Positions 1,229 through 50,579 of a DNA stretch of 64,000 nucleotides are shown one piece after another (position 1 is the first letter of the stretch; each line of letters opens with the position of its first letter). The DNA comes from Marsupella aquatica (taxonomy: Eukaryota > Plantae > Marchantiophyta). The stretch is from contig OZ316891.1 in NCBI GenBank assembly GCA_973895155.1, positions 24,675,899-24,739,898 of the forward strand, written 5' to 3'. Under the pieces are notes generated by a model that was not told where the DNA came from, made no database searches, and saw nothing but the letters and a program-made list of their open reading frames with translations. The position numbers and the translations under genes were made by a program.

Positions 1229-1275
1229 GCATTTCTTAAGCCGTGAGATATGAAGTTAGAACGGAAGCGTAGGTA

Positions 1276-17813: not shown

Positions 17814-18045
17814 ATTGTTGACGATGGATTGCACCTATATGGGCGAGGCGACCAGCGGTGGGGGTTGGCTAGGCTGAGGCAGAGCTTGAGCCTGAGCCTG
17901 AGCCGGTGTTGGTGCGGGTACAGGCACGGGCTCGGCTGGGCCGGCACCGGTGGTTGATGGTATGGTTGCCATGACGTTTTGCAGGTGCCGGTAGAGGATT
18001 TCTGAAGCAAGTGTAGACGGCCTTGTCGACTGGGTAGTGTTGAAC

Positions 18046-22705: not shown

Positions 22706-23671
22706 TGAACTCGCTGTTGATGATGGCCTGGACCCAAGCGGGGATGTGGTCAAAGTGGTGCCGCTGTAAGTCGATCATGCCCGGGATAGTGAAGACCAAG
22801 TTCAGAAGCCAAAGCAATGCCTCCTAGAAGCCGATGTATTTGTCCCCGTCAAAGAAGTACCCTGATATTTCTTTGGGTCGGTAAAGCTCGCTCTAGGATG
22901 GGTGATCAAAGTTAAGGAGATAGTGGTGGCGGCCTGCTAGGCAGATGGCTCTCTCGTACTCGTGTTCAATTTTGTATCCGTGCAGGTTCATTGGTGTGTT
23001 TTAATGAGTCGGCCAAGTGCCCCCCGATAGACAAGAACTGCATCCAAAATTGTATGGCCGAACTGGAAAGGATCGTGTGTGGCAGCTAGAGAAGATAGAA
23101 GGCGACTAAGGATGGGCAAGAGAACTGGGGTCGAAGCTGGCACGTGGACTGAAGAACTGGTGCACTACAAAGGATCGACCCCCTTTTTATACCCTGAGAG
23201 CTCGTCAGTCGCCCGACACCTCCTCGTCGCTTATAGGCCGAGCCTTTCATGCTTGTAGTGTACCGGCCACTCCGCCAGTCCGGGTCAGCGCGTGTCAATG
23301 GCTGCCTCCCGGAGTTTGTTATACGGACCCGAGGGGGGGGGCCCATTACACGCTCGCAACACGGGTGTGCAAATGGCGACCCACCGCCAGCCCAAACACG
23401 AATGCCCTTATTGACTAATGATTTCCTACTCATAATGGCTACCTAAATACTGTCATTACGCTAATAATTACAGCCTAAGATACCCCTAACGCGTGTGCTA
23501 AGCATGGTTAGGCCAAATCACTCATTACCCGCCGTACCGGCGGCGTCACAGGTTGGCCCATGTGGCCACTTTTGATTGGCTGTCTCGCTAAACAACAAAA
23601 TAGCAGGGAAGGGTATATTTCTTGGATTTCCAATTTGATTCTTAAACGTGCATTATGGCAAAATTATGTAG

Positions 23672-28776: not shown

Positions 28777-31700
28777 AGCTGCTGGAGGGCATTAGTTTTT
28801 TTATTGAGATGGTAGCGAATCCAATTAATTTTTATTGATCGAATCCAACAATTTGCGGTCGATCTGATTAGGAAAGATTCATTAAATTGGACCACCAGAA
28901 TTGTGATGCCTAGCCAGGAATCACTCGGCTAGTTTAAGTGGAAAAGGGAAGGGTACCCTAGAAACACCTTAGTATAGTTACAGAAATAAGGAAAATATAA
29001 ACAATTAAGGGTGACTATGGAACCCGAGCCGAGGCCGGAAGTAAGGACGCCAGGGGAGAGAACACGATTAGGGTTAGGGCACGATAAGTGCCGGCGGCTA
29101 CGGGTCACCAACGGGATAGAAACGCCAAGGAGGAGAGGGGTAAGGGCAGCTCGCGAGGAGTTGTGGCTCATTTGCAGGCACGAACTGGGCAGACAACTAC
29201 GGGCGGCCAACTACTGTCAGCTGCTTAAGCAAGCACTCAGGGGGGAGCAGATACCGACTATCAACTCGATAAGGGTATGAGCAATGTCAATCAAGTGGCA
29301 CATTTTTGGGGATGCCTATTCGAACGGGCAACTGAGTACATTGGGACTTACGAGGACGAAGAATCGGAGAGAGCAGCTTGAGAACGGCAGGAGCTAGCTC
29401 GGTTGTGGGAGCCGCAGAAAGCTGCCTTCTTAGGAGGAGAACTCATCAAGGCCGAATTCTTGTGGACTCCTACTACCAATCAACTCGACGACCTTCTATT
29501 TTGCGAAGACAGAGTCGTCGGCATCCGCGAGGCCATCAAACGCTGCAACGACATACACTGGGAGTTGAAGGGTAGCACGGAGGGGTGGACAAAGGCAACC
29601 GTGCTTGGAGAGACATCCACGGCAGTCGAGATGAAGAGGAAGGGAATTAACAACGACGAGGCCACCCCGACAAAAAGAACAAGGTCGGCGGCACCAAAGA
29701 GGCCAGCCGCAGCAGAGCAGGAGGCAGAGAGAAGCCGAGGAGGAGGAGGTCGACCCCATCAATGCCGTTCCAACGAGAGATGACACCTGGAAAGGCTGGG
29801 CGGCGATCCTCCCCGAGGAGGTCCAATTACACTTTGCAAGAGAGGAGGATGCATGCTTTACGGCTATGCAGACTCAGAAATATCAAGGATTCATGGCCAG
29901 ATTCGGCTTGGAAGCCTTCGTAAGGTTACCGTGGCTGAAGCTAGAGGTGCCGAATTCAGACTTACTTGAATTCATGGGATCATGGGAGTCCGAGACCAAT
30001 TCCACAAGGGTGTATGGGAAGGAATTCTATCTCACTCCCCAGGTGATTGCCGAAGTGTTTGGCTTGCCGATGGGCAATAAGACCAAGGTAGATACCAGGA
30101 AGACCTTGCCAGACACGGAGTTCAGGTTGTTCCCAGGGCCTTCAACAAAGAATGGCTTCTTCCGTAATACTTGCACCAACCCGCATATAGGAGAGATGAT
30201 CGATTTCTTGCGGGTGACCATGCATTGCAACTGGCCAATAGCAGAGATCGGCAAGGCACAGGTCTATCTGGCAGAGAGGCCAGACCCAAGCCGGGACTAC
30301 AACGGCTACCTCCTCACTCAACTAAAGAAGATCTTGAAGGAGGAACAGCTGGTGATCGGCAAGGGAAGCGTGTCCCGGCTTGGCTATCACATGCCGCTAT
30401 TGTGCCGGTATGCCCGAAGTAAGACCTTTGCCCCGGTACTTCCCCTACAGGCAAGGGCACCAGAGGAGGTTCCGGAATAGAGGCCGGCAACGGAGAAACC
30501 CAACCCACCCGACAGTCCTACAATCGAGCAGGTGTTTAGGCCAAGGACGAAGGACTTGCCGATGCAGCAACCAGGCATGCAGAATCTGCTGAAACTATTG
30601 GAGAAAGAAAAGAGATCGGCATCGGCAATGACAACGGCATCGGCAATGACAACGGCAACGGCAACGGCAACAATGCAGGACACTGCTCCAGAGGTAGGCC
30701 TAAACCAGCTTACAAGGGAAAACCCCTTTACTGGAGTCAAGGAGAGAAGGAGGCCGGAACACGAGCCGGGAGTCTGGATGTATGTAGGAGCCTCTAGACC
30801 CGAAGCCGAGGAGAAGCAAGCCGTAACTCCCGGCCACGACAAGGAGAACAGGAGATCAACACGGAAGCCGGAGGAGGAACCAAGACCGGCAGGAGGTGAA
30901 GCCGTGTTCAGGCCAAAACCAGGAGAGGAGCGGGAGAAGCCGGTAGTCCAAGCCAAGGAGGAGGCGGTGGAGGACTACAGCAATGATAACTCCGGCTATG
31001 GGTCGGATCATCATGTTCCAGGAGTAAGGATATGTGGCCGGTTCATCCCCACGCTCCCAAGAGTAGTCCGAGGGGACCCGAGCCAGCAGAGCAGCCCCGA
31101 GTCTCCCCCACCAGATGTCGCTCCCCCGAGCTTTGACGGCATAAAACAGACGGTGCAGGAATTTCAGGAGCAAATCAAGGAGGAAGAGGAGGCAGCCCTG
31201 GCTAGAGAGAAGGATTTACCAGGAGGAGAATGGCCAGAGAACATCAGGCGGCTTGCAGAAAAACGAGGCAGCCCGCCAGCCACAATAGAAGAGATCCGCA
31301 AGGCGGCTTGGGAACAAAGGCCGCGATGGATGATGCCGATGACTTCTACTTCCTCCACCTATGCTAAAGATAGAGCCATGGAGTACGGGGAGATGTGTGG
31401 GGAATTGGCGCTCAGCATCTTTGGGGAGGAGTTGGAGCAGGGACCCTTTTTCCAGAGGGAGATGTTGGAGAAGCGCCAATTAGAAGAAGCAGTGGCCTTG
31501 GAAAGAAGCAAGAAGGACGAGGTCATCCGTCGGCTTAGGGAAAGGGAAGCCAAAATCAAGGACCTGAGGGCGGCCAAGAAAGCCCAAGATGAGCTGCGGA
31601 TTAAGCGGCATGAGCTAAATATCATGCAGGGCCAGTTGGATACCGCACAATCTGATAATCGGATGATCAAGAATCTACTGACGCGGACCCAAGGAGAGTT

Positions 31701-31869
31701 GGCCGATGCAATCAAAGAGAGGGAGAAGTGGAAGCGAGAGCTGAGGAATGCAGAGGAGGCCCACATAACAGCCAACAACCGGGCCATGGCGGAGACCCAA
31801 AGAAAGGAATGGGCGTTGAAGGGGGAGCTCGAAAAAATCTGCGGAGCCCTTCACTAGTACATTATGAGG

Positions 31870-32370: not shown

Positions 32371-33408
32371 AAGGGGTAAAATTTCCAATTATTAATTTTG
32401 GGGGTGTGGGGGTTACAATGTTGGGATGCATGGAAGTGAGCATGGGTAGCAAGAATGGTAGTGAGACTCAAAAGGGGGAAACCCCTGCCATTATATATAC
32501 AAAAGAGGATGGCCTCCTCTAGCATGGAAAGTACAACCTTTACATGTACAGGTGTATAATCCATCTCAACCTGCATGGTATCGTGGCCTACCTACAAATG
32601 GTTCTATGCTAAGCTACCTGGCCTATCCATATGTTGGTGCATGTCGTCCCTTCCTCTTCTTGGCACGAGGGCGATAACTCTCTGGTCGGGTAGTGGCATC
32701 TGGCACTAACCCTAGGACCCTATCAATGACAGCATGAGATGCAGTTGCAACTATGGTGCTTGGAGCTATCGCGGTACCAACGTCACCAACATCACCTTCT
32801 AAGTCATGAGAAGGCACTGTAACACCCCCAGCATCGGAGCAAGTATGAAATGATGCACTTCCACTACCCCCTTGGGCTGCAGAGTGGTGAGACCCTGCAC
32901 CTCCACTAGCCCCTGACTGGTGAGATGGAGTCCCATCACCAATGCCACCAACTGCAGTCCCACTCACCCTATTGGCCCCTGAATGACCACGAGCAGTGCT
33001 CCCACCCCCACTAGCCCCTCCACCACTAGCCCCTGAATGGCGAGAACCATTGTGACGCCGCCGGTACGGCGGTTAATGAGTGATTCAGTCTAACTGCGCT
33101 CGGCACGCGCGTTAGGTGGGTCTTAGGCCGCTATTATTAGCATAACGACAGTATTTAGGTAATCATTAGGGGTAGGACATCATTAGGCAATAAGGGGGAC
33201 TTCAGGTTCGGGCTGGCGGCGGGTCGCTATTCGCACACCCGGGTTATGAGCATGGAGGGGCCCCTCCCTCGGGTCCGTATAACGAACTTAAGGAAGCGGC
33301 CACTGACGCACGCTGACTCAGACCGGCGGAGTGGCCGATACACCACAAGCGTGAGCGGTTCAACCTATGGGCGTCGAGGAGACGTCGGGGATCGACAAGC
33401 CCTCAAAG

Positions 33409-33416
33409 TATAAAAG
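33409..33416 (+). promoter_or_regulatory. Candidate TATA box for the LTR ORF
   Basis: TATAAAAG ~100 nt upstream of ATG 33517; also present in the 3' LTR and, reverse-complemented, in the diverged copy near 23184-23191. Confidence 0.55.
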
Positions 33417-33516
33417 GGGAGCCAACCCTTTGTAGTGCACCAGTCCATCAGTCCGCGCGCCAGCTTCGACCCCAGCTCTCTCGTTCTCTCTAGGTTGCCA
33501 CTACTATCTCCTCTGA

Positions 33517-36159
33517 ATGTCGCACGCGATCCTCTCCAGCTCGGCCATTCGATTCTGGACGCAGTTCCTATCTACCGGAAGGCACTTGGCCGATTCATTG
33601 AAACACGCCAACCCGCGCCGATACGAGATCGAACGCGAATACGAGAGAGCCATCTGCCTAGCAGGACGACACCACTACGTCCTTAACTTTGACTACCCGT
33701 CTCAGAGCGAGCTTTACTGACCAGCTGAGGTATCTGGGTACTTCTTTGACGGAGACAAATATATCGGGTTCTGGGAAGCATTGCTTCGGCTTCCGGACGA
33801 GGTCTTCAATATCCCGGGTACAATCGACCTGCAGCGACATCACTTCGACCACATCCCTGCCCAGGTTCGGGCAGTCATTAACGGCGAGTCCAGTACCAAC
33901 CGTTCGACAAGGGCATCCGCACTCGCTTCGGAGAACTTCTACCAGCACCTACAGAGCTTCATGGGAACTCGGCCATCAACCAACATGACCAACTCAGCCG
34001 GACCCGTACCCGTACCCGTACCTGTGCCCATGCAACCTCAGCTTCAGCTTCAGCCTCAGCCGCAGCCTAGCCAAACCCCACCACCTATCACCCAGCCAGC
34101 ACAGGTACGCTCCGTCATCAACGCTGTGGATCTTAGCGATGACGACGAGGCTACCCCACCCTTGACCAGGCGGCCCAGAGGAACAAGCGCTCGGGGGGCC
34201 GACACTATATTGTCCCCACCCCCTGCTCTGACCCCAGGAGCGGCCCCAGCAGACAACATGGTGACCGTGGCCGCCCCGGGCCCGTTACCAACTGCAGTGG
34301 CACTCCCCAGGCCCGATCGGGAGGATGGGGAAGTATCACCTTCCCCGAGTCAGTCACGGGGAAAGAAGAGGAAGGAATCCGCCAGTGCATCCGGGTTACC
34401 GTTGGCCACGGTAGCCGTAGCCAAGGTAACGATGCATCGCATGGGGGAAAACGTTCACAGCAACATCCTCCATCCCAAGCATGCGGTGTACCTGAAGACT
34501 CAGGGATTTGAGCACCTCGCCTCTCTCCCCTGGAACACTTGCAGGTACTACGGGGAGGACATGACAGAATTCGTCAAGAATTATGACGACGTACGTCAAC
34601 AGACTCGACTGCGGGGAAGGAATATGTCCCTCACAGAAGAACGGCTCAAGATGATCTTCGGGTTACCCGAAGGTGACCATCGAGTCGAATCACGGGCTCC
34701 CGGGGGCAAGGGGGCCAAGTACCAATCTTCAAGTTTTCCCTCAGAGGGATCAGTAGACAACGGGTTCGTGATGAGGACCTGCCTCATGCCCGAGATAGCT
34801 GAGCGGCTGGAGTTCCAGAGGTACGCTCTCCACATGATGGAACCCCGGGGGGAGATCTCCGCCGCCCAGGTCATCCAGGTCGAGAACTATCGACCTAGGA
34901 AGTGGGCGTCGTACTTCGCTAAGAAATTCCATGAAGAGATGGAGCGGCGAAGGAAGACGCTGTACATTGGCGGGAAGGCGTATTTCGCTAGCCACATCGA
35001 AATCATTCTTGAGTGGTACGCCCGGTTTGATTGACGAACCCTTCCCCGCATCAACGTTACAAAGCTGGTCCCAGCTAGGTGGGTTTTTCCGGCATTGGAG
35101 AGACGGCCCCAACCCGAGGCCCGAAGTCCAGTGGACACGCCAGCTTCACCCACCCCACCTCCACAAATAGCTGTAATCATAACCGAGGAGGCGCCGGAGG
35201 GGTCGGTCGTCGCAACCGTTGATGCGACCCAACTAGCCGGGCTAAGTACAGAAGTTGGTACGGCAGAGGTCTTACCCGAACCCGGGTCTCCCAAGGACCC
35301 GCCGGTGGCAATTTCGGAGAACCGGACATCGCTGCAGGAGGATACTCCGGCCCCTTCCAACGTTATGTCCCCAGGGCTGGACGTCACTGCCGCGGCCCCT
35401 GCGCGTGTTGATGTCTGCCCGTGCCCAAATCCGGACAGGCACAACTTGGACCACCCGGAACTCTTCGTACAGGGTACGTTTCTGAACGGGCTTCTGGGAG
35501 ATTTCTCTCATCAAATTGCCCGGGATACCGGGGAGTTCATGGCTCGGAAGGTAGCCTGTTTCTTCAATCAGGAGTTGGTTGCCGCCGTAAAGGCAGGGCG
35601 GGCCCAGTCGGAGGCCCTTCAGAGGATAGAGCGGTACCGGGTGGAGTCCGTGTACCTAAAGAACGAAGTGGCGGCTCAAGAGGCTGAGCTTCTGCAACTA
35701 CGACCCAAGGTTGCAGCCGCCGATGAGTTGTTAGCAAAGGCGTACGCTCTTACCGCCCTAGCCGAACAGGCCAAAGCTGGGAACGAGGCCGAGATTACAC
35801 GACTCCGGAACCAGATTGACAGTTTGAAGAAACAAGCTGTCACCTGGCAGAAAGACCTGGAGGAGGCCGAGGAGCGAGCCCAGCGGGACGCGACGGAGAT
35901 AGCCACGCTGCAGGCCGAGATGGCGCGGCTCCAAACCGAGGCCGAGAAGCAGGACCAGCTGGCGAGTAAATTGGCGAGCGACGCCCAGCAGCTGGAGGAG
36001 GCATGTCAGGAGGCAGCAGAGGAGACGGACGCGGCGAGGCGAGAGAACGAATCTCTGCTGGACCAGGTCCAGCTCCTCAAAGCGGACAATGACAGGCTTC
36101 GAAGGCAGCGGGATGGCCGTTCCCATTCGGGCGGCTCTGGCAAGCGTGCCAGGCATTAG
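33517..36159 (+). pseudogene. Family B LTR-encoded accessory ORF (880 aa consensus), two in-frame TGA stops
   Basis: ORFs 33517-33720, 33781-35034 and 35095-36159 share one frame; both TGA codons are CGA in the 3' LTR. Confidence 0.88.
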
Positions 36160-37071
36160 CGGCGGAGTAGGAATAGATTAGGATTAGGATTGGCTTAGTC
36201 AGGCTCTTGGGACAGGCACCTGCCTTAGGTACGGCAGCGCTGCCCTGCTGTCCAGCCTGCGTAGATTAGGATCTTCTAATAAGACACAGCCGTTTTCCAG
36301 CCTGACTGTCAGCTTAGTTAGGACCTTGGTCAACGAATCTTCGGCGGGAGGACACCCCGTTCCTCGGCTCTTAGTATTTAGTGCACCCCTCGGTAGAGGC
36401 AGGGGGGGTTTTTTAGTTTCAGAGTCGGACATCCGCGGGACATGCGGGGAGTCCCGACCTCTGGGAATGACAGAGAGCCAAGGGGAGGGGGTAGGACTAA
36501 GCTTGCCGGGCGAGTGCGGAGCCGGGCTCCGTTGTAGTGTGCACCCTTGGCCTTGAACCTGTGCATTCCAGGGCTATCGTGTCAACTAAGTGTACGCATA
36601 TGTTCCCTTTGTAGTAAAAATCCTTTCCCATCATTTTTCCTTCGTGTAAATCGAGATTGTATGCATGTGTGCGCATATGTGTGTGGGTTTCTCGTATATG
36701 GGTGGCAGCGCCGGGCCGAACGCACTACCCGAGACGTGCACAGGGTGCAGCCTGCGGGTAAGTGGTTGCGAGCACGGGTTGAGGACCTGTATCATCGAAT
36801 CCGGATCGAAGGCGGACAGCACGAAGGCTTAGAAGCCCTTAAGCCGGGGTCGATCCTGCTATCGACTAGGGTACGTTCCGGCGACGGAACACAAACCATA
36901 CCTAGGAGGTGTCCGTATTTAGCAGTATGCGCACTTAGCGCTAGTTTACGAGAATGAGGTGCATTACGTGCTTCCCTTCCTGCCTGAACCCTCAGATTTA
37001 CGAGGGATGTGCCCGTCTAAGCTGAAGTCTGAGTTAAGGCCGAAGCCTACGACGTGACATAGCCTTTGTTT

Positions 37072-37089
37072 TGGCGCTAGATGGAGGGG
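37072..37089 (+). promoter_or_regulatory. Primer-binding site, tRNA-Asn type
   Basis: TGGCGCTAGATGGAGGGG, identical to family A, 12 nt after the LTR end. Confidence 0.8.
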
Positions 37090-37182
37090 GCACTCTACAT
37101 ATCGTAGAGGGGAGACATGTGCGTATTCACCTAGGCAGGATACATCAGGACGTAGTACTAACCATTGCATTTATATGAGTAA

Positions 37183-40100
37183 ATGCCCGTCACTCGTTCT
37201 CAAGCAGCTTACTTGAGGAGATTGACCAGCGAACGAGAAAGTGCAACCACAACAAGCTCCAACTCGTCGGGCTCGGAGGACTCGCAATCGTCCCGACGTA
37301 TGAACATACCCCCGGGATCTTTGGGGTCCGGTTCGACCGGCCCTGCTGCGGTTCCACCACCACCACCACCACCACCACCACCACCACCACCTATGGCAGC
37401 CGCTCCACCGGTGGCCTGCGCTGCTCAGGCGCCTCCACAAATATCGCAACGATCGCGATTTCATTATCGACCTTTCAAAGGGCGTCATGGGGATGATCCG
37501 GATGAATGGTTGGATGAGTTTGAAGCCACTGCTAAAGCTAATGGGGAAGACGCCATTAAGCTAACCGTCCTCCCGGGAGTAATGCGGGGAGAAGCTCGTC
37601 CATGGTACAACTCGTTACCACCCGGGACTACCTGGGCACAATTCCAAGCTGCATTGCTGCAGGAGTTTTGTGCCATTGGATCAGAACAACGTTCTCTATT
37701 AAAGATTGGCCAGCTTCGCATGGGAAAAAAAGAGTCCCTGCGGAAGTTCATTCAGAAGTTTCAGAAACTTGCAGCCAAGATCCGGCCCAGGCCAGGAGAC
37801 GCGCTCCAGCTTACATGGTTCCTTCATGGTTTGCCCACGAATATGCAATTCTGGGTACGCCAGAATAATCCAATTTCAATGCAGGCGGCCATAGCGTGCG
37901 CCGAAACTTACCGGGAGTCCACCTATAACTCTCGGCGGAGCCAGCGAGCACGCCGCAGGAAGGGTAAGTACGAAACCTTCAGTGACAGTGACTCCGAATC
38001 GGACGACGAGAGGAAGAAGAAACGGAAGAAGAAGAAGAAGAAACATCGTTCGACCTCGTCCAGCTCCGAGACGGAATCCAGTTCGGATTCAGCTTCAAGC
38101 ATCGGATCCTCTACCTCCAGTTCATCAGGAAGTGACTTGGAGAGCGAAAGCCGGAGCAAAAAGAAGAAGAGACGAGTGAAGAAGGAGGGGAAGATTAAAC
38201 CCCGGGCGCGAAGAACGATACCAGATCCAAAGGCTGCCGAAGCAGACAAGCTGAACAAAATCACGGATCGACTCAAAGCACTGTCAGTACATCTTGCGGA
38301 GAAGCCGGTGGAGAAGAAGAAGCCATCTGAGATTCGAGCCTATGCGTGGTGTTCAAAGTGCTTCCAATCCGGCCATGTGGTGCAGGAATGCCCAAGGTGG
38401 AAGAACCGAGTTCACCAAGTAGAGCTGGATGATGTTGACAACCCGGGCCCCGAATCGGAGTCCACGGAGTATTTCTTTGAGGACCCTCCTGATTTCGTGT
38501 ACCAGATTTCAACGGTTGGTCCGCGTAATTTAGCGGGTAGAACTGCGTACCCCTACCCAAGTAATGGCCGGAGTTTCCAGGTTATCAGTAACCCGAGCAT
38601 CCCTCCTAAGCCAGGGATTTGGCGGTCCCCGGTTTGTTACAACTGTGAAAAGCCAGGACACTTTGCGAGGGAATGCACCGAACCAAGACGTCAGGGAGAT
38701 GGCCGAGGCACCCCACTATGTCAAGTTTGCAAAACGGAGGCTCATTCCACGGCCAACTGTCCGTTGGTAATCGCTGCTCGAACGAGTGCGGCTAGACCGG
38801 CCCAGGCTGGACCAGTCACGAGTGATGCAGTCGTCCAAATGATTGCTGTAGAATGGCAAGATGACAACACCGAGTGGGTGAATCTGGTGGACGTGGCGGA
38901 ACACCCTAATCCATTGGATGAGGCCGAGTGCTACCGAGTGTCGACAAGGGCCGAACGGAAGGAAGAAAAGACGGAGGAGAAACGGAGGAAAAAGCAAGAT
39001 ACTACTCCGGTGCAGCCAGCGATAAATATACCCCCGGAAAAGGACGATGACTACCGACGGGACGACCCGAAGCTATTTTTCCCCCGCATCGAAGAATTGG
39101 TAAAGAAACAGCTGGAGGCTTACGAAGCTCGGGAATACCAGAAGGCAATCGATAAGGACATCAAAGCAGCCGAGACAGCCCGGCGTCAGGAGCAAGAAAA
39201 GCAAGATAAACAAGAGGAAGCCAAGCAGCAGCCAACGAAAGAAACAAAGGAGGACTATGATATTAAGGAGGACGTGAAGAGTTGCCCGGTTACAGCGACG
39301 GTGGGGCAACTGCTGCAGAACAACCCACAGTACAGACGACAACTGAGGGAGTTGCTCATGGGTCGCCGAAGGAGAAGACTACCCCGAGTTGGGAGTGCGG
39401 ACTGCAACATGATATGCGAGGACCTTGGAGCGCCGGACATCTCGATCGAAATTAATAACTGTACCATCAAGATGGTCCTTGTAGACAGAGGAGCGGGAGT
39501 CAACATCATGACTGAAGAAACGTCAGTCAAGTTAGGATACCTCACGTATCAACCCACGGCCCGAGCTATCAGATTAGCAAACGGGGCAAGGGTCCTCCCA
39601 TTAGGCACGCTCACACGAGTGCTCACTCTGGTGGGAGGGGTAGAGTTCTATCTCAACTTCTTAGTCATGAGGCCGGTTCGTCCCTCCTCTTATCCGGTTC
39701 TTCTGGGCAGGCTGTGGCTGTACGGTGGCCGTGTAGTCACGGATTGGGGAAAGAAGGAGCTACGGTTCGGGGAACCCACCGTACGGGTATCCTGGGCAAT
39801 GGACGATTATCAGGGAGAAACCCCACAAGGACTCGAGGAATATGATTCGGAGACCTCGGAGGAAGAGGAACTCAATATGATCGAACTCATCTCGTCCCTA
39901 TCCGAGGAAGATGTCTTCGGAGTTGAAGCAACCCGAGAAACACATCTCCTAAATTACCCGAGGGCTGCCATTGAGTCCACCCCAAGTACATCTACTGTCG
40001 GGGATGAGGAAACGCACGAACAACTCGTCGAGACGGAGGACACGGCTCCAGCCAAGCAGGGAGCCGTGGCTACTCCTTCCATTTCAGAGCCTTGTAACCA

Positions 40101-43100
40101 TGAACCAGCCCAACAACCGCCTGAGGCCGAAAACTCGAGACCGAGACATAAAAAGCGAGTCTCATGGGATCCGTCCATTCCGCAATTGGAGGAAGTAAAC
40201 CCCATCCCGAGACCAATCCCGGTCCCACCCATGTACGGAGGGGTTCGGTTAGCTGAGCTTGACGCGAGCCTGGACCCGAGTCTGCGAAACCAGGTTGAAG
40301 TCATCAGGAAGGAGCACTACCGGAAGTACACTATTGGGATGGACAAATCTTTTAACCTGGGCCACGCTTTGACGGGGAAGGCTGAAAAAGCCATCCAAGC
40401 TTTGCTCAAGGAATATGAAGATGTGTTTGCATGGAGTCATCATGATTTAACAGGCGTCTCCCCCGAGTTGGGAGAACACACAATCGATCTGAACCTAGGA
40501 GCCCATGCGGTACGACAGCGACAACGTCGCATGAATCCGAGGTACTCCATCTTAGTGAAGGAGGAAATTGATCGTCTCCTCGCCGCCGATATCATTTACC
40601 CGGTAATGGCCAGCGACTGGGTCTCTCCCATTGTCATTGTACCAAAGAAGGGAGGTACGGATGGAAAACCTAAGATTCGTATCTGTCAGGACTACCGTAA
40701 GCTGAATGACGCAACCCGAAAAGACCATTACCCATTACCATTCACGGATATGGTTCTAGATATGGTGGCCCGAAATGAAATCTATACATTTCTTGACGGG
40801 TATTCAGGTTATAACCAAATCTGGATTCGTCTCGCGGATCAGCTCAAAACAACGTTCACTACGGAGTGGGGAACGTTCGCATTTCGGAGGATGCCTTTTG
40901 GTCTGTGTAACGCCCCGGCTATGTTTCAGCGCCTTATGATGAATATCTTCCACGATTTCCTACGAGAATTTTTGGAGATATTTATCGATGACTTTGCCAT
41001 CTTCGGAACCGTTGCCATGCACCCCGAACACCTACGACGAATGTTGCAACGATGCCGAGATGTTAACCTCAAACTACATCCCGCCAAATGCTTCTTCGGG
41101 GTAGAGGAGGGGGTGTTACTCGGGCATCGTGTGTCCAAACGGGGCATTGAGGTGGACCAAGAGAAAGTTGCGGCCTGGATGGCGGTGGTGTTCCCCTTGG
41201 ATCAAAAAGCAGTACGATCCTTCTTGGGCTGCGTAGGGTATTACCGCCGGTTCATTAAAGACTTTGCTAAAATTGCGTTGCCCTTAACTGAGATGATGAA
41301 GAACGACGCAGCGGTCGAGGAAACACCCCGGAGACGGATTGCTTTTGAGGAACTCCGTAAACGACTCACCACCGCGCCTATCATGGTCACCCCAGACTGG
41401 AATAAGGAGTTCCACGTGTATGTCGATGTGTCAGGGTTCTGTATCGGATCCGTACTTAGTCAGCTAGATGAGGATGGACGTGATCACCCCATCTATTTCG
41501 CTAGCCGTCAACTATTTGCAGCCGAAAAGAATTATTCCCCCACTGATCGAGAAGCTTTGGGAATAATCTACTCGTGTAAAAAGTTCCGACACTATCTGCT
41601 AGGCTACAAGGTCATTTTCCACACGGATCATGATAGCCTGAAGTACATGGTCAACAAAGCGGATGTGACAGGACGGATAGCCCGGTGGGTGCTACTTCTC
41701 CAGGAATTTAATTACGAAGTTCAGGTTCGGCCAGGAAGGGTACACCTCAATGCCGATTTCTTTTCACGACTGGACGGCGTACCAGTCGATCAGCCAATTG
41801 ATGATATTTTTCCGGATGAGGAGTTGTTCCACGTAGGGGAAGGGACACCAACGTGGTACGGCTCAATAATCACCTTCCTTTTAACGGGCCGCATCCCTGA
41901 CGGCATCAATCAGGAGGCCGCCGCTGTGTTTTTACGAAAAGCCGGGCCTTACGTCATGATACAGGGTCACCTACATAAGGAAGGTATTAACGGAAAGTTA
42001 CGACGCTGCTTAGAGTATAAGGAGACACTTATCGTGATACGGGCCCTGCATGAAGAAGAAGCTGGAGGCCATTTCGCGGCAGTTACGACAACCCGAAAGA
42101 TTCTGGACTCGGGGTATTGGTGGCCTACGTTGCATCGGGATGTACAGCGCTTCATTAAGGGCTGTGACTTGTGTCAGCGAGCGGGGGCCCCGAGGCGGGC
42201 TCATCATCACCCGCTCACATCTGTGCTTCCATTGGCACCATTCAAAAAATGGGGAATTGATTATATCGGACCGTTCACTCCCGTTACCCGAAGGCGAAGG
42301 TGCAGGTACATCCTATTAGCTATTGATTACTCCACCAAATGGGTCGAAGCGCGGGCTACGGTAAAGGACGATGCCGCAACCAGTGCCAGATTCTTATACG
42401 AACAGATTTTCACCCGATTCGGACCGCCCTTAGAATTGGTAAGCGACCGTGGAACCCACTTCCTCAATGACACCGTAGCCCAGCTTACGGAGCGTTACCT
42501 AGTCAAGCACCGCAAGACTACCCCATATCATCCTAAAGCCAACGGGATGGCGGAGAGAGCAAATGGTATCATTGGGAAGATCCTCAACAAAACTGTAGCT
42601 GCGCACAAAACGGATTGGGATGATAAGTTGTACGCGGCGGTGTACTCGTATAATCTAGCTTACAAAACTACTACGAGTCATAGCCCGTACTTTCTGGTGT
42701 TCGGCCAACATTCGTTGGTGCCCGTCGAATTTGAAGTGCACACTCCACGGGTCAGCATTCGGGATCGCTTACCTGAATCTGAAAGTCTGTCAGACCGAGC
42801 TTATCAGATTGAAGCCTTGGAAGAAGCACGGCTACTGGCAGCTCGACACACCGTGAAGAAACAAGCAACTTCGAAGAAGCAGCACGACAAAGGACTACGG
42901 AGGGTCGACGTCGTGGCAGGCGATCTAGTCCTTCTGTACGATAGTAGGTACATGCAGTTTCCAGGGAAGCTGCATACCCGGTGGTTGGGGCCCTTCCTTG
43001 TCAATCAGATCTACCGAAACGGATCTTTGGAGCTTGCGACGTATGCCGGCGATTTACTCCCCACGCGAATCAGCTACGATCGTGTAAAAAAGTACCACCA

Positions 43101-43194
43101 TCAAGATGACGACGCCGATAGCGATGTTCGCGAGGACGCTTCACAATTAAGCAGGGAGCTATGTGACGCCGCCGGTACGGCGGTTAATGAGTGA
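37183..43194 (+). CDS. gag-pol: Gag-Pol polyprotein, single ORF of 2003 aa
   Basis: DPDEWLDEF; three CCHC knuckles; protease LVDRGAG; RT FIDDF; RH; integrase HHCC plus DDE; GPF motif; reads 33 nt into the 3' LTR. Confidence 0.96.
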   Translation: MPVTRSQAAYLRRLTSERESATTTSSNSSGSEDSQSSRRMNIPPGSLGSGSTGPAAVPPPPPPPPPPPPPMAAAPPVACAAQAPPQISQRSRFHYRPFKGRHGDDPDEWLDEFEATAKANGEDAIKLTVLPGVMRGEARPWYNSLPPGTTWAQFQAALLQEFCAIGSEQRSLLKIGQLRMGKKESLRKFIQKFQKLAAKIRPRPGDALQLTWFLHGLPTNMQFWVRQNNPISMQAAIACAETYRESTYNSRRSQRARRRKGKYETFSDSDSESDDERKKKRKKKKKKHRSTSSSSETESSSDSASSIGSSTSSSSGSDLESESRSKKKKRRVKKEGKIKPRARRTIPDPKAAEADKLNKITDRLKALSVHLAEKPVEKKKPSEIRAYAWCSKCFQSGHVVQECPRWKNRVHQVELDDVDNPGPESESTEYFFEDPPDFVYQISTVGPRNLAGRTAYPYPSNGRSFQVISNPSIPPKPGIWRSPVCYNCEKPGHFARECTEPRRQGDGRGTPLCQVCKTEAHSTANCPLVIAARTSAARPAQAGPVTSDAVVQMIAVEWQDDNTEWVNLVDVAEHPNPLDEAECYRVSTRAERKEEKTEEKRRKKQDTTPVQPAINIPPEKDDDYRRDDPKLFFPRIEELVKKQLEAYEAREYQKAIDKDIKAAETARRQEQEKQDKQEEAKQQPTKETKEDYDIKEDVKSCPVTATVGQLLQNNPQYRRQLRELLMGRRRRRLPRVGSADCNMICEDLGAPDISIEINNCTIKMVLVDRGAGVNIMTEETSVKLGYLTYQPTARAIRLANGARVLPLGTLTRVLTLVGGVEFYLNFLVMRPVRPSSYPVLLGRLWLYGGRVVTDWGKKELRFGEPTVRVSWAMDDYQGETPQGLEEYDSETSEEEELNMIELISSLSEEDVFGVEATRETHLLNYPRAAIESTPSTSTVGDEETHEQLVETEDTAPAKQGAVATPSISEPCNHEPAQQPPEAENSRPRHKKRVSWDPSIPQLEEVNPIPRPIPVPPMYGGVRLAELDASLDPSLRNQVEVIRKEHYRKYTIGMDKSFNLGHALTGKAEKAIQALLKEYEDVFAWSHHDLTGVSPELGEHTIDLNLGAHAVRQRQRRMNPRYSILVKEEIDRLLAADIIYPVMASDWVSPIVIVPKKGGTDGKPKIRICQDYRKLNDATRKDHYPLPFTDMVLDMVARNEIYTFLDGYSGYNQIWIRLADQLKTTFTTEWGTFAFRRMPFGLCNAPAMFQRLMMNIFHDFLREFLEIFIDDFAIFGTVAMHPEHLRRMLQRCRDVNLKLHPAKCFFGVEEGVLLGHRVSKRGIEVDQEKVAAWMAVVFPLDQKAVRSFLGCVGYYRRFIKDFAKIALPLTEMMKNDAAVEETPRRRIAFEELRKRLTTAPIMVTPDWNKEFHVYVDVSGFCIGSVLSQLDEDGRDHPIYFASRQLFAAEKNYSPTDREALGIIYSCKKFRHYLLGYKVIFHTDHDSLKYMVNKADVTGRIARWVLLLQEFNYEVQVRPGRVHLNADFFSRLDGVPVDQPIDDIFPDEELFHVGEGTPTWYGSIITFLLTGRIPDGINQEAAAVFLRKAGPYVMIQGHLHKEGINGKLRRCLEYKETLIVIRALHEEEAGGHFAAVTTTRKILDSGYWWPTLHRDVQRFIKGCDLCQRAGAPRRAHHHPLTSVLPLAPFKKWGIDYIGPFTPVTRRRRCRYILLAIDYSTKWVEARATVKDDAATSARFLYEQIFTRFGPPLELVSDRGTHFLNDTVAQLTERYLVKHRKTTPYHPKANGMAERANGIIGKILNKTVAAHKTDWDDKLYAAVYSYNLAYKTTTSHSPYFLVFGQHSLVPVEFEVHTPRVSIRDRLPESESLSDRAYQIEALEEARLLAARHTVKKQATSKKQHDKGLRRVDVVAGDLVLLYDSRYMQFPGKLHTRWLGPFLVNQIYRNGSLELATYAGDLLPTRISYDRVKKYHHQDDDADSDVREDASQLSRELCDAAGTAVNE

Positions 43195-46100
43195 TTCAGT
43201 CTAACTGCGCTCGGCACGCGCGTTAGGTGGGTCTTAGGCCGCTATTATTAGCATAACGACAGTATTTAGGTAATCATTAGGGGTAGGACATCATTAGGCA
43301 ATAAGGGGGACTTCAGGTTCGGGCTGGCGGCGGGTCGCTATTCGCACACCCGGGTTATGAGCATGGAGGGGCCCCTCCCTCGGGTCCGTATAACGAACTT
43401 AAGGAAGCGGCCACTGACACACGCTGACTCAGACCGGCGCAGTGGCCGGTACACCACAAGCGTGAGCGGTTCAACCTATGGGCGTCGAGGAGACGTCGGG
43501 GATCGACAAGCCCTCAAAGTATAAAAGGGGAGCCAACCCTTTGTAGTGCACCAGTCCATCAGTCCGCGCGCCAGCTTCCACCCCAGCTCTCTCGTTCTCT
43601 CTAGGTCGCCACTACTATCTCCTCTGAATGTCGCACGCGATCCTCTCCAGCTCGGCCATTCAATTCTGGACGCAGTTCCTATCTACCGGAAGGCACTTGG
43701 CTGATTCATTGAAACACGCCAACCCGCGCCGATACGAGATCGAACGCGAATACGAGAGAGCCATCCGCCTAGCAGGACGACACCACTACGTCCTTAACTC
43801 AGAGCGAGCTTTACCGACCAGCTGAGGTATCTGGGTACTTCTTTGACGGAGACAAATATATCGGGTTCTGGGAAGCATTGCTTCGGCTTCCGGACGAGGT
43901 CTTCAATATCCCGGGTACAATCGACCTGCAGCGACATCACTTCGACCACATCCCTGCCCAGGTTCGGGCAGTCATTAACGGCGAGTCCAATACCAACCGT
44001 TCGACAAGGGCGTCCGCACTCGCTTCGGAGAACTTCTACCAGCACCTACAGAGCTTCATGGGAACTCGGCCATCAACCAACATGACCAACTCAGCCGGAC
44101 CCGTACCCGTACCCGTACCCGTGCCCATGCAACCTCAGCTTCAGCTTCAGCCTCAGCCGCAGCCTAGCCAAACCCCACCACCTATCACCCAGCCAGCACA
44201 GGTACGCTCCGTCATCAACGCTGTGGATCTTAGCGATGACGACGAGGCTACCCCACCCTTGACCAGGCGGCCCAGAGGAACAAGCGCTCGGGGGGCCGAC
44301 ACTATATCGTCCCCACCCCCTGCTCTGACCCCAGGAGCGGCCCCAGCAGACAACATGGTGACCGTGGCCGCCCCGGGCCCGTTACCAACCGCAGTGGCAC
44401 TCCCCAGGCCCGATCGGGAGGATGGGGAAGTATCACCTTCCCCGAGTCAGTCACGGGGAAAGAAGAGGAAGGAATCCGCCAGTGCATCCGGGTTACCGTT
44501 GGCCACGGTAGCCGTAGCCAAGGTAACGATGCATCGCATGGGGGAAAACGTTCACAGCAACATCCTCCATCCCAAGCATGCGGTGTACCTGAAGACTCAG
44601 GGATTTGAGCACCTCGCCTCTCTCCCCTGGAACACTTGCAGGTACTACGGGGAGGACATGACAGAATTCGTCAAGAATTATGACGACGTACGTCAACAGA
44701 CTCGACTGCGGGGAAGGAATATGTCCCTCACAGAAGAACGGCTCAAGATGATCTTCGGGTTACCCGAAGGTGACCATCGAGTCGAATCACGGGCTCCCGG
44801 GGGCAAGGGGGCCAAGTACCAATCTTCAAGTTTTCCCTCAGAGGGATCAGTAGACAACGGGTTCGTGATGAGGACCTGCCTCATGCCCGAGATAGCTGAG
44901 CGGCTGGAGTTCCAGAGGTACGCTCTCCACATGATGGAACCCCGGGGGGAGATCTCCGCCGCCCAGGTCATCCAGGTCGAGAACTATCGACCTAGGAAGT
45001 GGGCGTCGTACTTCGCTAAGAAATTCCATGAAGAGATGGAGCGGCGAAGGAAGACGCTGTACATTGGCGGGAAGGCGTATTTCGCTAGCCACATCGAAAT
45101 CATTCTTGAGTGGTACGCCCGGTTTGATCGACGAACCCTTCCCCGCATCAACGTTACAAAGCTGGTCCCAGCTAGGTGGGTTTTTCCGGCATTGGAGAGA
45201 CGGCCCCAACCCGAGGCCCGAAGTCCAGTGGACACGCCAGCTTCACCCACCCCACCTCCACAAATAGCTGTAATCGTAACCGAGGAGGCGCCGGAGGGGT
45301 CGGTCGTCGCAACCGTTGATGCGACCCAACTAGCCGGGCTAAGTACAGAAGTTGGTACGGCAGAGGTCTTACCCGAACCCGGGTCTCCCAAGGACCCGCC
45401 GGTGGCAATTTCGGAGAACCGGACATCGCTGCAGGAGGATACTCCGGCCCCTTCCAACGTTATGTCCCCAGGGCTGGACGTCACTGCCGCGGCCCCTGCG
45501 CGTGTTGATGTCTGCCCGTGCCCAAATCCGGACAGGCACAACTTGGACCACCCGGAACTCTTCGTACAGGGTACGTTTCTGAACGGGCTTCTGGGAGATT
45601 TCTCTCATCAAATTGCCCGGGATACCGGGGAGTTCATGGCTCGGAAGGTAGCCTGTTTCTTCAATCAGGAGTTGGTTGCCGCCGTAAAGGCAGGGCGGGC
45701 CCAGTCGGAGGCCCTTCAGAGGATAGAGCGGTACCGGGTGGAGTCCGTGTACCTAAAGAACGAAGTGGCGGCTCAAGAGGCTGAGCTTCTGTAACTACGA
45801 CCCAAGGTTGCAGCTGCCGATGAGTTGTTAGCAAAGGCGTACGCTCTTACCGCCCTAGCCGAACAGGCCAAAGCTGGGAACGAGGCCGAGATTACACGAC
45901 TCCAGAACCAGATTGACAGTTTGAAGAAACAAGCTGTCACCTGGCAGAAAGACCTGGAGGAGGCCGAGGAGCGAGCCCAGCGGGACGCGACGGAGATAGC
46001 CACGCTGCAGGCCGAGATGGCGCGGCTCCAAACCGAGGCCGAGAAGCAGGACCAGCTGGCGAGTAAACTGGCGAGCGACGCCCAGCAGCTGGAGGAGGCA

Positions 46101-47156
46101 TGTCAGGAGGCAGCAGAGGAGACGGACGCGGCGAGGCGAGAGAACGAATCTCTGCTGGACCAGGTCCAGCTCCTCAAAGCGGACAATGACAGGCTTCGAA
46201 GGCAGCGGGATGGCTGTTCCCATTCGGGCGGCTCTGGCAAGCGTGCCAGGCATTAGCGGCGGAGTAGGAATAGATTAGGATTAGGATTGGCTTAGTCAGG
46301 CTCTTGGGACAGGCACCTGCCTTAGGTACGGCAGTGCTGCCCTGCTGTCCAGCCTGCGTAGATTAGGATCTTCTAATAAGACACAGCCGTTTTCCGGCCT
46401 GACTGTCAGCTTAGTTAGGACCTTGGTCAGCGAATCTTCGGCGGGAGGACACCCCGTTCCTCGGCTCTTAGTATTTAGTGCACCCCTCGGTAGAGGCAGG
46501 GGGGGTTTTTTAGTTTCAGAGTCGGACATCCGCGGGACATGCGGGGAGTCCCGACCTCTGGGAATGACAGAGTACCAAGGGGAGGGGGTAGGACTAAGCT
46601 TGCCGGGCGAGTGCGGAGCCGGGCTCCGTTGTAGTGTGCACCCTTGGCCTTGAACCTGTGCATTCCAGGGTTGTCGTGTCAACTAAGTGTACGCATATGT
46701 TCCCTTTGTAGTAAAAATCCTTTCCCATCATTTTTCCTTCGTGTAAATCGAGATTGTATGCATGTGTGCGCATATGTGTGTGGGTTTCTCGTATATGGGT
46801 GGCAGCGCCGGGCCGAACGCACTACCCGAGACGTGCACAGGGTGCAGCCTGCGGGTAAGTGGTTGCGAGCACGGGTTGAGGACCTGTATCATCGAATCCG
46901 GATCGAAGGCGGACAGCACGAAGGCTTAGAAGCCCTTAAGCCGGGGTCGATCCTGCTATCGACTAGGGTACGTTCCGGCGGCGGAACACAAACCATACCT
47001 AGGAGGTGTCCGTATTTAGCAGTATGCGCACTTAGCGCTAGTTTACGAGAATGAGGTGCATTACGTGCTTCCCTTCCTGCCCGAACCCTCAGATTTACGA
47101 GGGATGTGCCCGTCTAAGCTGAAGTCTGAGTTAAGGCCGAAGCCTACGACGTGACA
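43162..47156 (+). repeat. Family B 3' LTR, 3995 bp
   Basis: Copy of the 5' LTR with a 14-nt deletion near 43799 and scattered transitions. Confidence 0.96.
43628..46256 (+). pseudogene. Family B LTR ORF, 3' copy (14-nt deletion frameshift and one TAA)
   Basis: ORFs 43628-43825, 43878-45794 and 45825-46256; TAA 45792 is CAA in the 5' LTR. Confidence 0.88.
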
Positions 47157-50100: not shown

Positions 50101-50579
50101 GCGTGTATTGTGCAGTATTTTTTTGCGGAGGGTTGGGTCATTCTCTTTGTTTGTATTTTTGTAGGTCCATTTTTGCAATGCATTATGCATCGCGATAGGC
50201 CGTGCATCCGAAAGGTATGATATACTCCCTTTATCATTTGGAGGTGAGCACTTTAAGTATATATTTGGCTAAAGTTTTTTCATTGATGGCCACAATATAT
50301 AGTGGATATGATTCTATGGGGACATATGTATAGATAAATTCTGATGGTATTCCTTTAATTGTGCAGACATTTCGGATATTGTCTTAGCATATATTCTAAG
50401 GCCAAGATCCTAGTAGGCATTGTTCAGTGCGGATATCATTTAGGTAAGATGCACAGTCATTATTTTTAATTATTCGCTTAGTGTAAACTAGGTTCCAATC
50501 TTGACATATTGTATTTAGGGTACTTAATATGAGTGGGAAAGATTTTTGACATGTGATTAATTTTCACATTGATGGGCAG

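What the first reader, a model, noticed from the sequence alone, without database searches (positions are those of the whole stretch)
33517..36159. Three divergent families (A, B, C) keep a homologous LTR protein with the same modular design
Seen: the LTR DNAs are not alignable by eye, but the proteins share a core. A: GLEAFVRLPW...EFVGSWE...GKDFYLTPKVIAEVFGLP...NGF...C...MHCNLPRVEI. B: GFEHLASLPW...EFVKNYD...GRNMSLTEERLKMIFGLP...NGF...C...LHMMEPRGEI. C: QLERFAHLLW...EFISNFD...GQTLSLTEHRLTQIFGLP...NGY...C...LHMIEPRSEI. Layout: variable N-domain, Pro-rich/basic linker, core, Pro/Glu-rich linker, coiled coil (cut off in C). Inference: long-term protein-level selection. The EF...G..LT....IFGLP pattern resembles plant-transposon accessory domains (Athila ORF1 / Transposase_32 / plant-mobile-domain-like).
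Basis: partly seen in the sequence, partly recalled or inferred. Interest (0 to 1): 0.85.

Follow-up and report, generated by a model that had tools for sequence, protein, structure and literature searches.

The report
Anti-silencing-like gene inside retrotransposon LTRs
Three families of plant jumping-gene repeats in this DNA carry, inside an end-repeat that is normally non-coding, a conserved protein gene whose core is predicted to fold like a transposon protein known to undo host gene silencing, so each leftover end-repeat would likely be a small cassette that helps keep its family switched on.

Summary
Confirmed and extended. B (33051-47156) is a whole Ty3 retrotransposon. Its 4.0-kb LTRs each hold an 880-codon ORF, and gag-pol fills the interior. 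Family A (4.6-kb LTRs) and repeat C carry homologues. The cores are 27-42% identical although the LTR DNA does not align, and core dN/dS is 0.10 in both A and B.

Correction: the N-domain is not variable but a second conserved domain shared by A, B and C.

A profile search found 84 relatives; all organism-named clusters were liverworts (7 of 19 looked up). The core model (pLDDT 95) best matches the anti-silencing factor VANC21 (Z 7.8, next hit 2.7; Foldseek E 0.13). Transposase_32 is reached only through intermediates, below cut-off. A sense-strand ATTAGG motif is enriched in the non-coding LTR parts.

Best reading: an LTR-borne, likely DNA-binding anti-silencing or transactivating factor (about 50%); function untested.

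Against: no RNA data; every LTR copy that spans most of the ORF is broken; C's 3' end is unseen.

The scan noted LTR-internal genes before, in fungal and invertebrate DNA. New variant of a known kind.

The parts
33051..47156 (+). Element B: whole Ty3/Gypsy non-chromovirus LTR retrotransposon, TSD ACCAT at 33046-33050 and 47157-47161
33051..37059 (+). B 5' LTR, 4009 nt, TG..CA
   Evidence: mixed flanks before 33051 in run X3 contigs
33110..33190 (+). 5' cluster of sense-strand TTAGG/ATTAGG motifs in the non-coding start of the B LTR
33409..33415 (+). TATAAAA, 108 nt upstream of the ORF's ATG; candidate promoter (inferred)
33517..36159 (+). B LTR ORF, 880 codons, two in-frame stops in this copy: N-domain, Pro-rich basic linker, core, Pro/Glu linker, short helix, coiled coil
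33538..33876 (+). Conserved N-domain of about 110 aa, shared by A, B and C; helical, no clear fold match
34438..35046 (+). Conserved core of about 200 aa; predicted VANC21-like fold (modelled from the 3' LTR copy, 44535-45152)
35434..36111 (+). Pre-coil helix and coiled coil
   Evidence: weak coiled-coil Pfam hits; dN/dS 0.14 and 0.37
36160..37059 (+). 3' non-coding part of the LTR: ATTAGG cluster just after the stop, then a U-rich TGTA-bearing stretch about 370-500 nt downstream (candidate 3'-end signal, inferred)
37072..37089 (+). Primer-binding site, same sequence as in A (from 1211); 12-nt spacer after the LTR
   Evidence: tRNA identity (Asn) recalled, not tested
37183..43194 (+). B gag-pol, 2003 aa, open: gag, zinc knuckle, protease, RT, RNase H, integrase; runs into the 3' LTR
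43162..47156 (+). B 3' LTR; its ORF copy (43628-46256) has a 14-nt deletion and one stop
1273..7442 (+). Element A interior: gag (1273-4269) and pol (4176-7442), both open; pol 65% identical to B
7431..12066 (+). A 3' LTR, 4.6 kb, holding ORF 7804-11145 (1113 codons, three stops); core about 8356-9036
18046..22705 (-). A solo LTR with TSD TGAAC, inserted into the ORF of a divergent B-type LTR; ORF 22329-18958 (1123 codons, two stops)
28902..31851 (+). Divergent partial A-type LTR (about 85% identity) used for dN/dS
13300..23550 (-). Divergent B-type LTR (about 80%) in three pieces: 22709-23550, 17952-18041, 13300-15880
56036..60640 (.). A-type LTR fragment (56036-56955, +) and an internally deleted A-type 3' LTR with an integrase-end remnant (56956-60640, -)
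60642..62992 (+). Repeat C: TG start, about 550 nt non-coding with an ATTAGG cluster, ORF 61193-62992 (N-domain 61193-61570, core 61892-62497, three stops), cut by an A LTR
62993..64000 (+). A-type LTR inserted into C's ORF, running off the window

Best explanation
These Ty3 retrotransposons carry a conserved accessory gene of about 880-1120 codons wholly inside each LTR, and its product is likely a nuclear, sequence-specific DNA-binding protein with a predicted VANC21-like core that would bind the family's own LTRs and keep them transcribed against host silencing. Shown: the gene lies within the LTR in A and B, is under purifying selection, and is homologous in A, B and C in both the N-domain and the core. 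Predicted: the core fold resembles VANC21, and the C-terminal coiled coil would oligomerise the protein. Inferred: the LTR's own upstream promoter and a 3'-end signal after the stop make the gene a self-contained unit, so 5', 3' and solo LTRs could all express it and it would act in trans; the strand-biased ATTAGG clusters flanking the gene are the candidate binding sites. Whether the gene sits in U3 (with its own promoter) or in a very long R region is not resolved.
For: Element anatomy. dN/dS 0.10 in both cores and 0.09-0.18 in the N-domains at dS 0.5-0.7. Core model pLDDT 94.9 from 52 sequences. Foldseek rank 1 is the VANC21-DNA complex 9lnj (E 0.13, prob 0.87, TMq 0.51; the other listed rows have TMq<=0.20). 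VIA-align against 48,161 chains: VANC21 9lnk is the only hit with Z>=5 (Z 7.8, 192 of 206 aligned, rmsd 4.1; next Z 2.7). 6 of 84 homologues hit PF20167 below cut-off, and a profile built without five of them still finds all six at E<=2e-7 except P0155, which was not re-tested. No transmembrane stretch (maximum 19-residue hydropathy 1.13) and basic NLS-like clusters in all three. ATTAGG seen 12 times against 1.2 expected in the non-coding LTR parts of A, B and C; its score of 8.2 beats the best hexamer in each of 500 shuffles (maximum 5.8). VANC21 binds short motifs accumulated in non-coding parts of its own element (PMC5735166, passages). PMD proteins share the VANC fold and act through promoter motifs (10.1101/2024.09.27.615353 and PMC13547354, passages).
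Against: The fold match is middling (Z just under 8, Foldseek E 0.13, 8-10% identity), and a shared fold shows no function. The same fold also serves silencing in MAIN/MAIL1 (PMC5418596, passages). The A, B and C cores hit no Pfam family of this group, and the core profile did not find the three PF20167-bearing angiosperm proteins among the 120 pol hits. The A core is not basic overall (27 K+R, 27 D+E). The ATTAGG motif was picked after looking, is shared across families rather than family-specific as VANC motifs are, is absent from the divergent B copy, and its strand bias suits an RNA-level signal equally well. A TATA box near the ATG is seen only in B. All five LTR copies that span most of the ORF are broken, and the two gag-pol-bearing elements have 6 stops in their LTR ORFs against 0 in gag-pol (223 vs 292 stop-prone codons, p about 0.007, post hoc), which this model does not explain.
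Confidence: 0.5

Rival explanations
1. The protein acts on the element's RNA, for example by controlling read-through of the 5' LTR's 3'-end signal, nuclear export or packaging, and binds the sense-strand UUAGG motifs.
For: All 12 ATTAGG hits lie on the sense strand, with none on the reverse strand in those parts. A gene ahead of gag or inside R would need an RNA-level switch (inference). An accessory export factor is known in the C. elegans element Cer1 (PMC10309623, search listing only).
Against: The only solved relative of the fold is a double-stranded DNA-binding protein. B's 5' motif cluster lies upstream of its TATA-like box.
Confidence: 0.2
2. The protein is a chromatin tether or scaffold that steers integration, for example into other copies of these LTRs, or aids particle assembly through its coiled coil.
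For: Three nested insertions: A into a B-type LTR ORF, A into C's ORF, C into an A-type integrase end. Long coiled coil; the integrase has no chromodomain hit.
Against: Nesting is expected in any repeat-dense region. No contact with integrase or Gag was tested.
Confidence: 0.12
3. The protein represses its own family, as a copy-number brake working like MAIN/MAIL1 in silencing.
For: MAIN and MAIL1, of the related PMD fold, were found as silencing factors (PMC5418596, passages). Contig depth over the LTR is about 4.5 times that over the interior in run X1 (weak hint of many solo LTRs that could supply a repressor).
Against: Strong purifying selection along multiplying lineages is easier to explain by a benefit to transposition. 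The TE-encoded member with a tested function is an activator.
Confidence: 0.1
4. The ORF is an env-like membrane protein or a functionless captured passenger.
For: All copies that span most of the ORF are broken. Athila-type extra ORFs have been called env-like (PMC7264820, first 10,000 characters).
Against: No transmembrane stretch. dN/dS about 0.1 in two families and two domains. Confident globular models for two domains.
Confidence: 0.04

Closest known systems
VANC proteins of VANDAL Mutator-like DNA transposons (VANC21, PDB 9lnj/9lnk)
   Same: Best structural match of the core. TE-encoded accessory protein with a conserved domain, variable low-complexity regions and a coiled coil (PMC5735166, PMC13547354, passages). 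A short motif is enriched in non-coding parts of the element.
   Different: Here the carrier is a retrotransposon, the gene lies inside the terminal repeat and appears intron-less, and the lineage is liverwort-like, whereas VANC is described as dicot-specific. Identity is 8-10%, there is an extra N-domain, and the motif is shared across families. Anti-silencing is untested.
Extra ORFs of OTA non-chromoviruses: Athila ORF1 (PF03078), Transposase_32 (PF20167), PMD of Ogre (PF10536), Transposase_28 of Retand (PF04195)
   Same: Accessory ORF of a plant non-chromovirus Ty3 element; 6 of 84 homologues hit PF20167 below cut-off; 5-bp TSD.
   Different: The passages read place these ORFs in the internal region, before gag or between pol and the 3' LTR (PMC6317226, PMC7264820, PMC11963269). 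Here there is no such region: pol runs into the 3' LTR and the gene is duplicated within both LTRs.
MAIN/MAIL1/MAIL2 plant-mobile-domain proteins
   Same: Reported structural homology to VANC's DUF1985; they work through promoter DNA motifs against Polycomb silencing.
   Different: Host genes described from angiosperms; no PF10536 hit here.
Phygy and Selgy clades (moss, lycophyte)
   Same: Non-seed-plant non-chromoviruses whose polyprotein fills the interior.
   Different: They have 4-bp TSDs, other primers, no listed extra ORFs and sizes of 4.4-10 kb; B is 14.1 kb with a 5-bp TSD.
Retroviral genes in or at the LTR: MMTV sag, HIV nef, foamy-virus Tas (recalled, no call)
   Same: A regulatory or accessory gene placed in or next to U3; Tas activates its own LTR.
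   Different: Unrelated proteins, much shorter, in vertebrate retroviruses.

Membership tests
Ty3/Gypsy LTR retrotransposon (A, B) | gag-PR-RT-RH-INT order between direct TG..CA repeats, with PBS, PPT and TSD | tested here: met
   TSD seen for B and the solo A LTR (A's 5' end is outside the window)
Non-chromovirus | no chromodomain on integrase; RT groups with non-chromoviruses | tested here: met
   no chromodomain hit; nearest named pol hits are liverwort and seed-plant elements; lineage labels for these hits are recalled
Athila (OTA) | 5-bp TSD, no added archaeal RNase H | tested here: met
Athila (OTA) | extra ORF and large non-coding region between pol and the 3' LTR | tested here: not met
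   pol ends inside the 3' LTR in A and B
Athila (OTA) | RT-RH-INT phylogeny places it in the Athila clade | tested here: inconclusive
   FastTree of 25 sequences puts A and B with Riccia and unnamed contigs (support 0.998), apart from the angiosperm and pine group; no labelled REXdb references in the tree
Phygy / Selgy | 4-bp TSD, tRNA-Trp or tRNA-Ala primer, no extra ORF | tested here: not met
   5-bp TSDs and a long ORF, against the table
Transposase_32 (PF20167) | score at or above the gathering cut-off of 45 bits | tested here: not met
   no hit for the A, B, C cores; best homologue 31.8 bits
ATHILA (PF03078), PMD (PF10536), DUF1985 | Pfam profile match | tested here: not met
   none; Atlas lead only (score 0.81)
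VANC anti-silencing factors | VANC21 fold | tested here: met
   Z 7.8, rmsd 4.1, 192 aligned, next hit 2.7; Foldseek rank 1, E 0.13; middling strength, predicted model
VANC anti-silencing factors | encoded by VANDAL Mutator-like DNA transposons, with DUF1985 and DUF287 | tested here: not met
   carrier is an LTR retrotransposon; no such Pfam hits
VANC anti-silencing factors | sequence-specific DNA binding that causes loss of methylation and derepression | not testable with these tools
   needs EMSA, ChIP and methylome data; motif enrichment only
LTR (repeat C) | sharp TG 5' terminus with varied flanks in many copies | tested here: met
   contigs start at 60642 in runs X2-X4; loose ends before it agree at only 0.54-0.56 in X1 and X4; A-type integrase continues differently in other copies
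LTR (repeat C) | CA 3' end, TSD, linkage to PBS, PPT and gag-pol | tested here: inconclusive
   cut by an A LTR at 62993; no PPT junction among the rows shown (111 rows not shown)

The most novel reading that the evidence does not exclude
A liverwort lineage of Ty3 retrotransposons has its own VANC-type anti-silencing system built into the LTR. Every LTR, solo LTRs included, is a promoter-gene-terminator cassette whose product binds a shared ATTAGG motif and shields several families in trans. This would be the retrotransposon counterpart of VANDAL/VANC and would push the VANC/PMD fold back to early land-plant retrotransposons, favouring a Gypsy origin for the host MAIN/MAIL genes.
Probability: 0.3. 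Interest if true: 0.88.

Novelty: new variant of a known kind. Interest (0 to 1): 0.72.

Why it matters
What the extra ORFs of plant Ty3 elements do is a stated open question (PMC6317226, PMC7264820, PMC11963269). So is whether the plant mobile domain began in a retrotransposon or a host gene (PMC5418596). This family links such an ORF to a solved anti-silencing fold, supplies a candidate DNA motif and extends the fold to liverwort-like plants, which makes both questions testable in Marchantia. Placing the gene inside the LTR means that solo-LTR formation, usually the end of an element's coding capacity, would leave expression cassettes behind. It also explains the 4-4.6 kb LTRs, and annotation tools that look only between the LTRs would likely miss the gene.

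Tried and rejected
No whole genome is held for this window, so hits could not be checked genome-wide for lying in LTRs.

Word-based homologue searches for the core found nothing: single sequence, 370-1178 aa; alignment, 1368-3905 aa (weak evidence against fusion to gag-pol). The PDB sequence search gave only coiled-coil noise. The viral structure library gave no credible match. A viral-contig scan did not complete and then could not be built from the alignment.

The metagenome scan with B's pol returned 11 loci of 2.9-9.2 kb, at 30-48% identity. None matched the LTR proteins better than E 0.83, so they are too distant or too short to test gene placement.

N-domain: Atlas scores were under 0.8; Foldseek gave no E<=0.001; VIA best Z 5.5 among generic helical proteins. 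No fold was assigned, and this does not show the fold is new.

No RNA holder was listed, so there are no data on expression.

The core profile did not find the PF20167-bearing angiosperm proteins P0014, P0105 or P0108.

The core tree (rows under 120 aligned residues dropped) is poorly supported at depth. It was not used to claim co-evolution with RT, since C's RT is unknown and A and B give one pair.

A family-specific motif was sought and not found; the top motif is shared. The upstream ATG of A was rejected as the start. An env-like role was rejected. No complex prediction was run.

The VANC21 structure paper and Sasaki 2022 were not held. No look-alike earlier finding by place.
Full report
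ANATOMY. The window is eukaryotic, repeat-dense DNA; no genome is held for it. Self-BLAST shows two LTR families and a third repeat. Element B spans 33051-47156. Its LTRs are 4009 and 3995 nt, 98.9% identical (30 substitutions and one 14-nt deletion), with TG..CA ends, the 5-bp TSD ACCAT, a primer-binding site 12 nt after the 5' LTR and a purine tract before the 3' LTR. An open 2003-aa gag-pol with the Ty3 domain order and no chromodomain hit fills the interior and ends inside the 3' LTR. Element A has gag (1273-4269), pol (4176-7442), the same primer site and a 4.6-kb 3' LTR (7431-12066). Its pol is 65% identical to B's over 980 aa, and its gag-protease region 36% over 610 aa. Further A-type LTRs include a solo copy with TSD TGAAC at 18046-22705. 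A divergent B-type LTR lies in three pieces at 13300-23550. Repeat C starts with TG at 60642 inside an A-type integrase remnant and is cut by an A LTR at 62993.

THE OBSERVATION. Each LTR carries one long sense ORF: B 33517-36159 (880 codons), A 7804-11145 (1113), and C 61193-62992 (600, cut off). The cores align at 28.6% (A-B), 41.8% (B-C) and 26.9% (A-C), with E from 1e-16 to 6e-41, and score 173-381 against at most 53 in 1000 shuffles. The LTR DNAs share nothing better than 29 nt at E 0.012. Nei-Gojobori estimates between divergent copies give core dN/dS 0.10 in B (dN 0.050, dS 0.503, 198 codons) and 0.10 in A (0.053, 0.535, 194 codons). N-domains give 0.18 (B, 122 codons) and 0.09 (A, 111 codons); linkers, coils and tails give 0.16-0.63 across the pairs. 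This also moves A's start to the second ATG; the 87 codons before it evolve near-neutrally in the divergent pair (0.78, one frameshift). All three LTRs thus share a layout: 380-550 nt non-coding, N-domain, linker, core, linker, short helix, coiled coil (cut in C), and about 900 nt non-coding (A, B). For C, contigs from public runs start sharply at 60642 with mixed flanks, while the A-type integrase continues differently in other copies. C is therefore a mobile repeat with an LTR-type 5' end; its 3' end is unseen.

RELATIVES. An HMM of four core copies found 84 proteins at E<=0.001 among 1.84 billion representatives. Several repeat the full layout, for example the 906-aa P0208. Among the 120 listed pol hits the highest named identity is Riccia at 55%, with Marchantia at 47% and unnamed contigs up to 74%. 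A and B group with Riccia and unnamed sequences, apart from the seed-plant group. The host is therefore likely a liverwort or another bryophyte (inference). Whether the homologues lie in LTRs could not be tested. The two Riccia gene models join the core to a DDE_Tnp_4 fragment, so some relatives may ride DNA transposons, or these are annotation chimeras.

FOLD. The B core, modelled with 52 sequences, has pLDDT 94.9 and pTM 0.90. Foldseek's first hit in the PDB is VANC21 bound to DNA (9lnj; E 0.13, probability 0.87, TMq 0.51), with the other listed rows at TMq 0.20 or less. An aligner that does not rely on Foldseek, run on 48,161 chains, returns VANC21 (9lnk) as the only Z>=5 match: Z 7.8, rmsd 4.1, 192 of 206 residues; the next is 2.7. 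The tool warns that Z under 8 can be a common arrangement, but the gap and the coverage argue for a real relationship. By sequence, the A, B and C cores hit no relevant Pfam family. Six of 84 homologues hit Transposase_32 at 17-32 bits (cut-off 45). A profile built without P0177, P0186, P0194, P0202, P0155, P0157 and P0175 finds P0177, P0186, P0191, P0194, P0202 and P0175 at E<=2e-7, yet neither profile finds three PF20167-bearing angiosperm proteins among the pol hits. The link to Transposase_32 is thus transitive only. The N-domain models well (pLDDT 91.1, 14 sequences) but has no clear match. There is no transmembrane stretch, and all three proteins have basic clusters.

CIS SIGNALS. B has TATAAAA 108 nt before the ATG; A and C have no box at the same place. 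A and B have a U-rich, TGTA-bearing stretch roughly 370-500 nt after the stop. In the non-coding LTR parts of one copy per family, ATTAGG occurs 12 times against 1.2 expected, all on the sense strand. Its score beats the best hexamer in each of 500 dinucleotide shuffles (in that test A's 5' part was taken as the first 115 nt only). Seven control stretches outside the LTRs (14.4 kb) hold 5 plus-strand and 4 minus-strand copies. The motif was noticed by eye first, and the divergent B copy has TTAGG but no ATTAGG.

MECHANISM. VANC21 binds a 9-base motif accumulated in non-coding parts of its own transposon and causes loss of methylation (PMC5735166, passages). VANC and the plant mobile domain of MAIN/MAIL are reported to be structurally homologous, and MAIN/MAIL work through promoter motifs against Polycomb silencing (10.1101/2024.09.27.615353, passages; PMC13547354, passages, which also predicts coiled-coil oligomers for VANC and the Athila domain). 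The most likely reading is a nuclear DNA-binding factor that keeps cognate LTRs active, expressed from a unit contained in the LTR and acting in trans. Coding, homology and selection are shown (about 0.95). The fold is predicted (about 0.8). The anti-silencing or transactivating role is inferred (about 0.5). Rivals are an RNA-level regulator (0.2), an integration or assembly scaffold (0.12), a self-repressor (0.1), and env-like or functionless (0.04).

AGAINST AND UNEXPLAINED. No RNA run was listed, so expression is untested. All five LTR copies that span most of the ORF are broken: A 3' has three stops, A solo two, B 5' two, B 3' one plus a deletion, and C three. The elements with open gag-pol have 6 stops in their LTR ORFs and none in gag-pol (223 vs 292 stop-prone codons; p about 0.007, post hoc and open to selection bias). 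Faster decay of methylated LTRs, trans-complementation, or host selection against intact copies could each explain this; none was tested. Summed contig depth over B's LTR is about 4.5 times that over its interior in run X1 (my average of the bins). The tool says this is no copy number, so it is only a hint of many solo LTRs.

KNOWN VERSUS NEW. Extra ORFs in plant non-chromoviruses are well known, including PMD, Transposase_28 and Athila ORF1 domains, but the texts I read place them in the internal region (PMC6317226, passages and supplementary file 3; PMC7264820, first 10,000 of 24,095 characters; PMC11963269, passages; PMC11728184, passages). Phygy and Selgy differ in TSD, primer and lack of extra ORFs. 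PMD is described from angiosperms (PMC5418596, passages) and VANC as dicot-specific. The Apopellia genome paper lists Athila, Phygy and Tat labels, and the passages read mention no LTR genes (PMC12885004). Nine searches listed no paper that, by title, abstract start or the passages read, describes an LTR-internal gene of this kind in plants. Four listed papers holding 'located in the LTR' were not read, most subscription journals and bioRxiv supplements are not held, and the VANC21 structure paper was not available. Genes in or next to retroviral LTRs (MMTV sag, HIV nef, foamy Tas) are recalled. Earlier notes of this scan report LTR-internal genes in fungal and invertebrate DNA; I did not test them, and they are not support.

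VERDICT. Real, under selection, and better defined than first reported. It is a new variant of a known kind: an accessory gene with a predicted VANC/PMD-type fold, moved wholly into the LTR, in a liverwort-like Ty3 lineage. It is not filed as VANC, PF20167, Athila or Phygy/Selgy. Interest 0.72.

Noticed in passing
window 48396-55339: A CACTA-like transposon (Transposase_21, DUF4218, DUF4216 pieces at 52070-55339) has an open SET-domain ORF directly upstream (50938-51897; PF00856 at 32.7 bits, above cut-off) and a coiled-coil ORF on the minus strand (48396-49559): possibly a transposon-borne histone methyltransferase-like gene.
   Followed up: no
window 7804-11145, 33517-36159, 43797-46253 versus the gag-pol ORFs: LTR ORFs carry 6 premature stops while the gag-pol ORFs of the same two elements carry none (p about 0.007, post hoc). 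Unexplained.
   Followed up: partly
window 18046-22705, 60642, 62993: Three nested insertions among these families: A into a B-type LTR ORF, A into C's ORF, and C into an A-type integrase end.
   Followed up: partly
proteins P0175, P0191 (Riccia sorocarpa): Core homologues are joined to a DDE_Tnp_4 (Harbinger-type) fragment in two gene models, so the domain may also travel with DNA transposons, or the models are chimeric.
   Followed up: no
proteins P0133, P0216-P0218 (Calypogeia fissa CAM6101869, -870, -879, -880): N-domain-only and core-bearing gene models have neighbouring accession numbers, twice, on contigs of one length, as expected for split annotation of repeated copies.
   Followed up: no
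window 16742-16934: Tandem array of 27/20-nt ACCAAGG-rich units inside the 2-kb stretch that interrupts the divergent B-type LTR.
   Followed up: no
window 24360-25589 (-): Decayed protease and RT fragments of another Ty3 element, chromovirus-like by eye.
   Followed up: no
window 37060-37071 and 1207-1210: The primer-binding site is separated from the LTR end by 12 nt in B and 4 nt in A; contigs show length variation at 37068.
   Followed up: no
window 33051-33075, 60642-60665: B and C LTRs begin with TGTGAC followed by a short inverted repeat; A begins TGTGAT.
   Followed up: no
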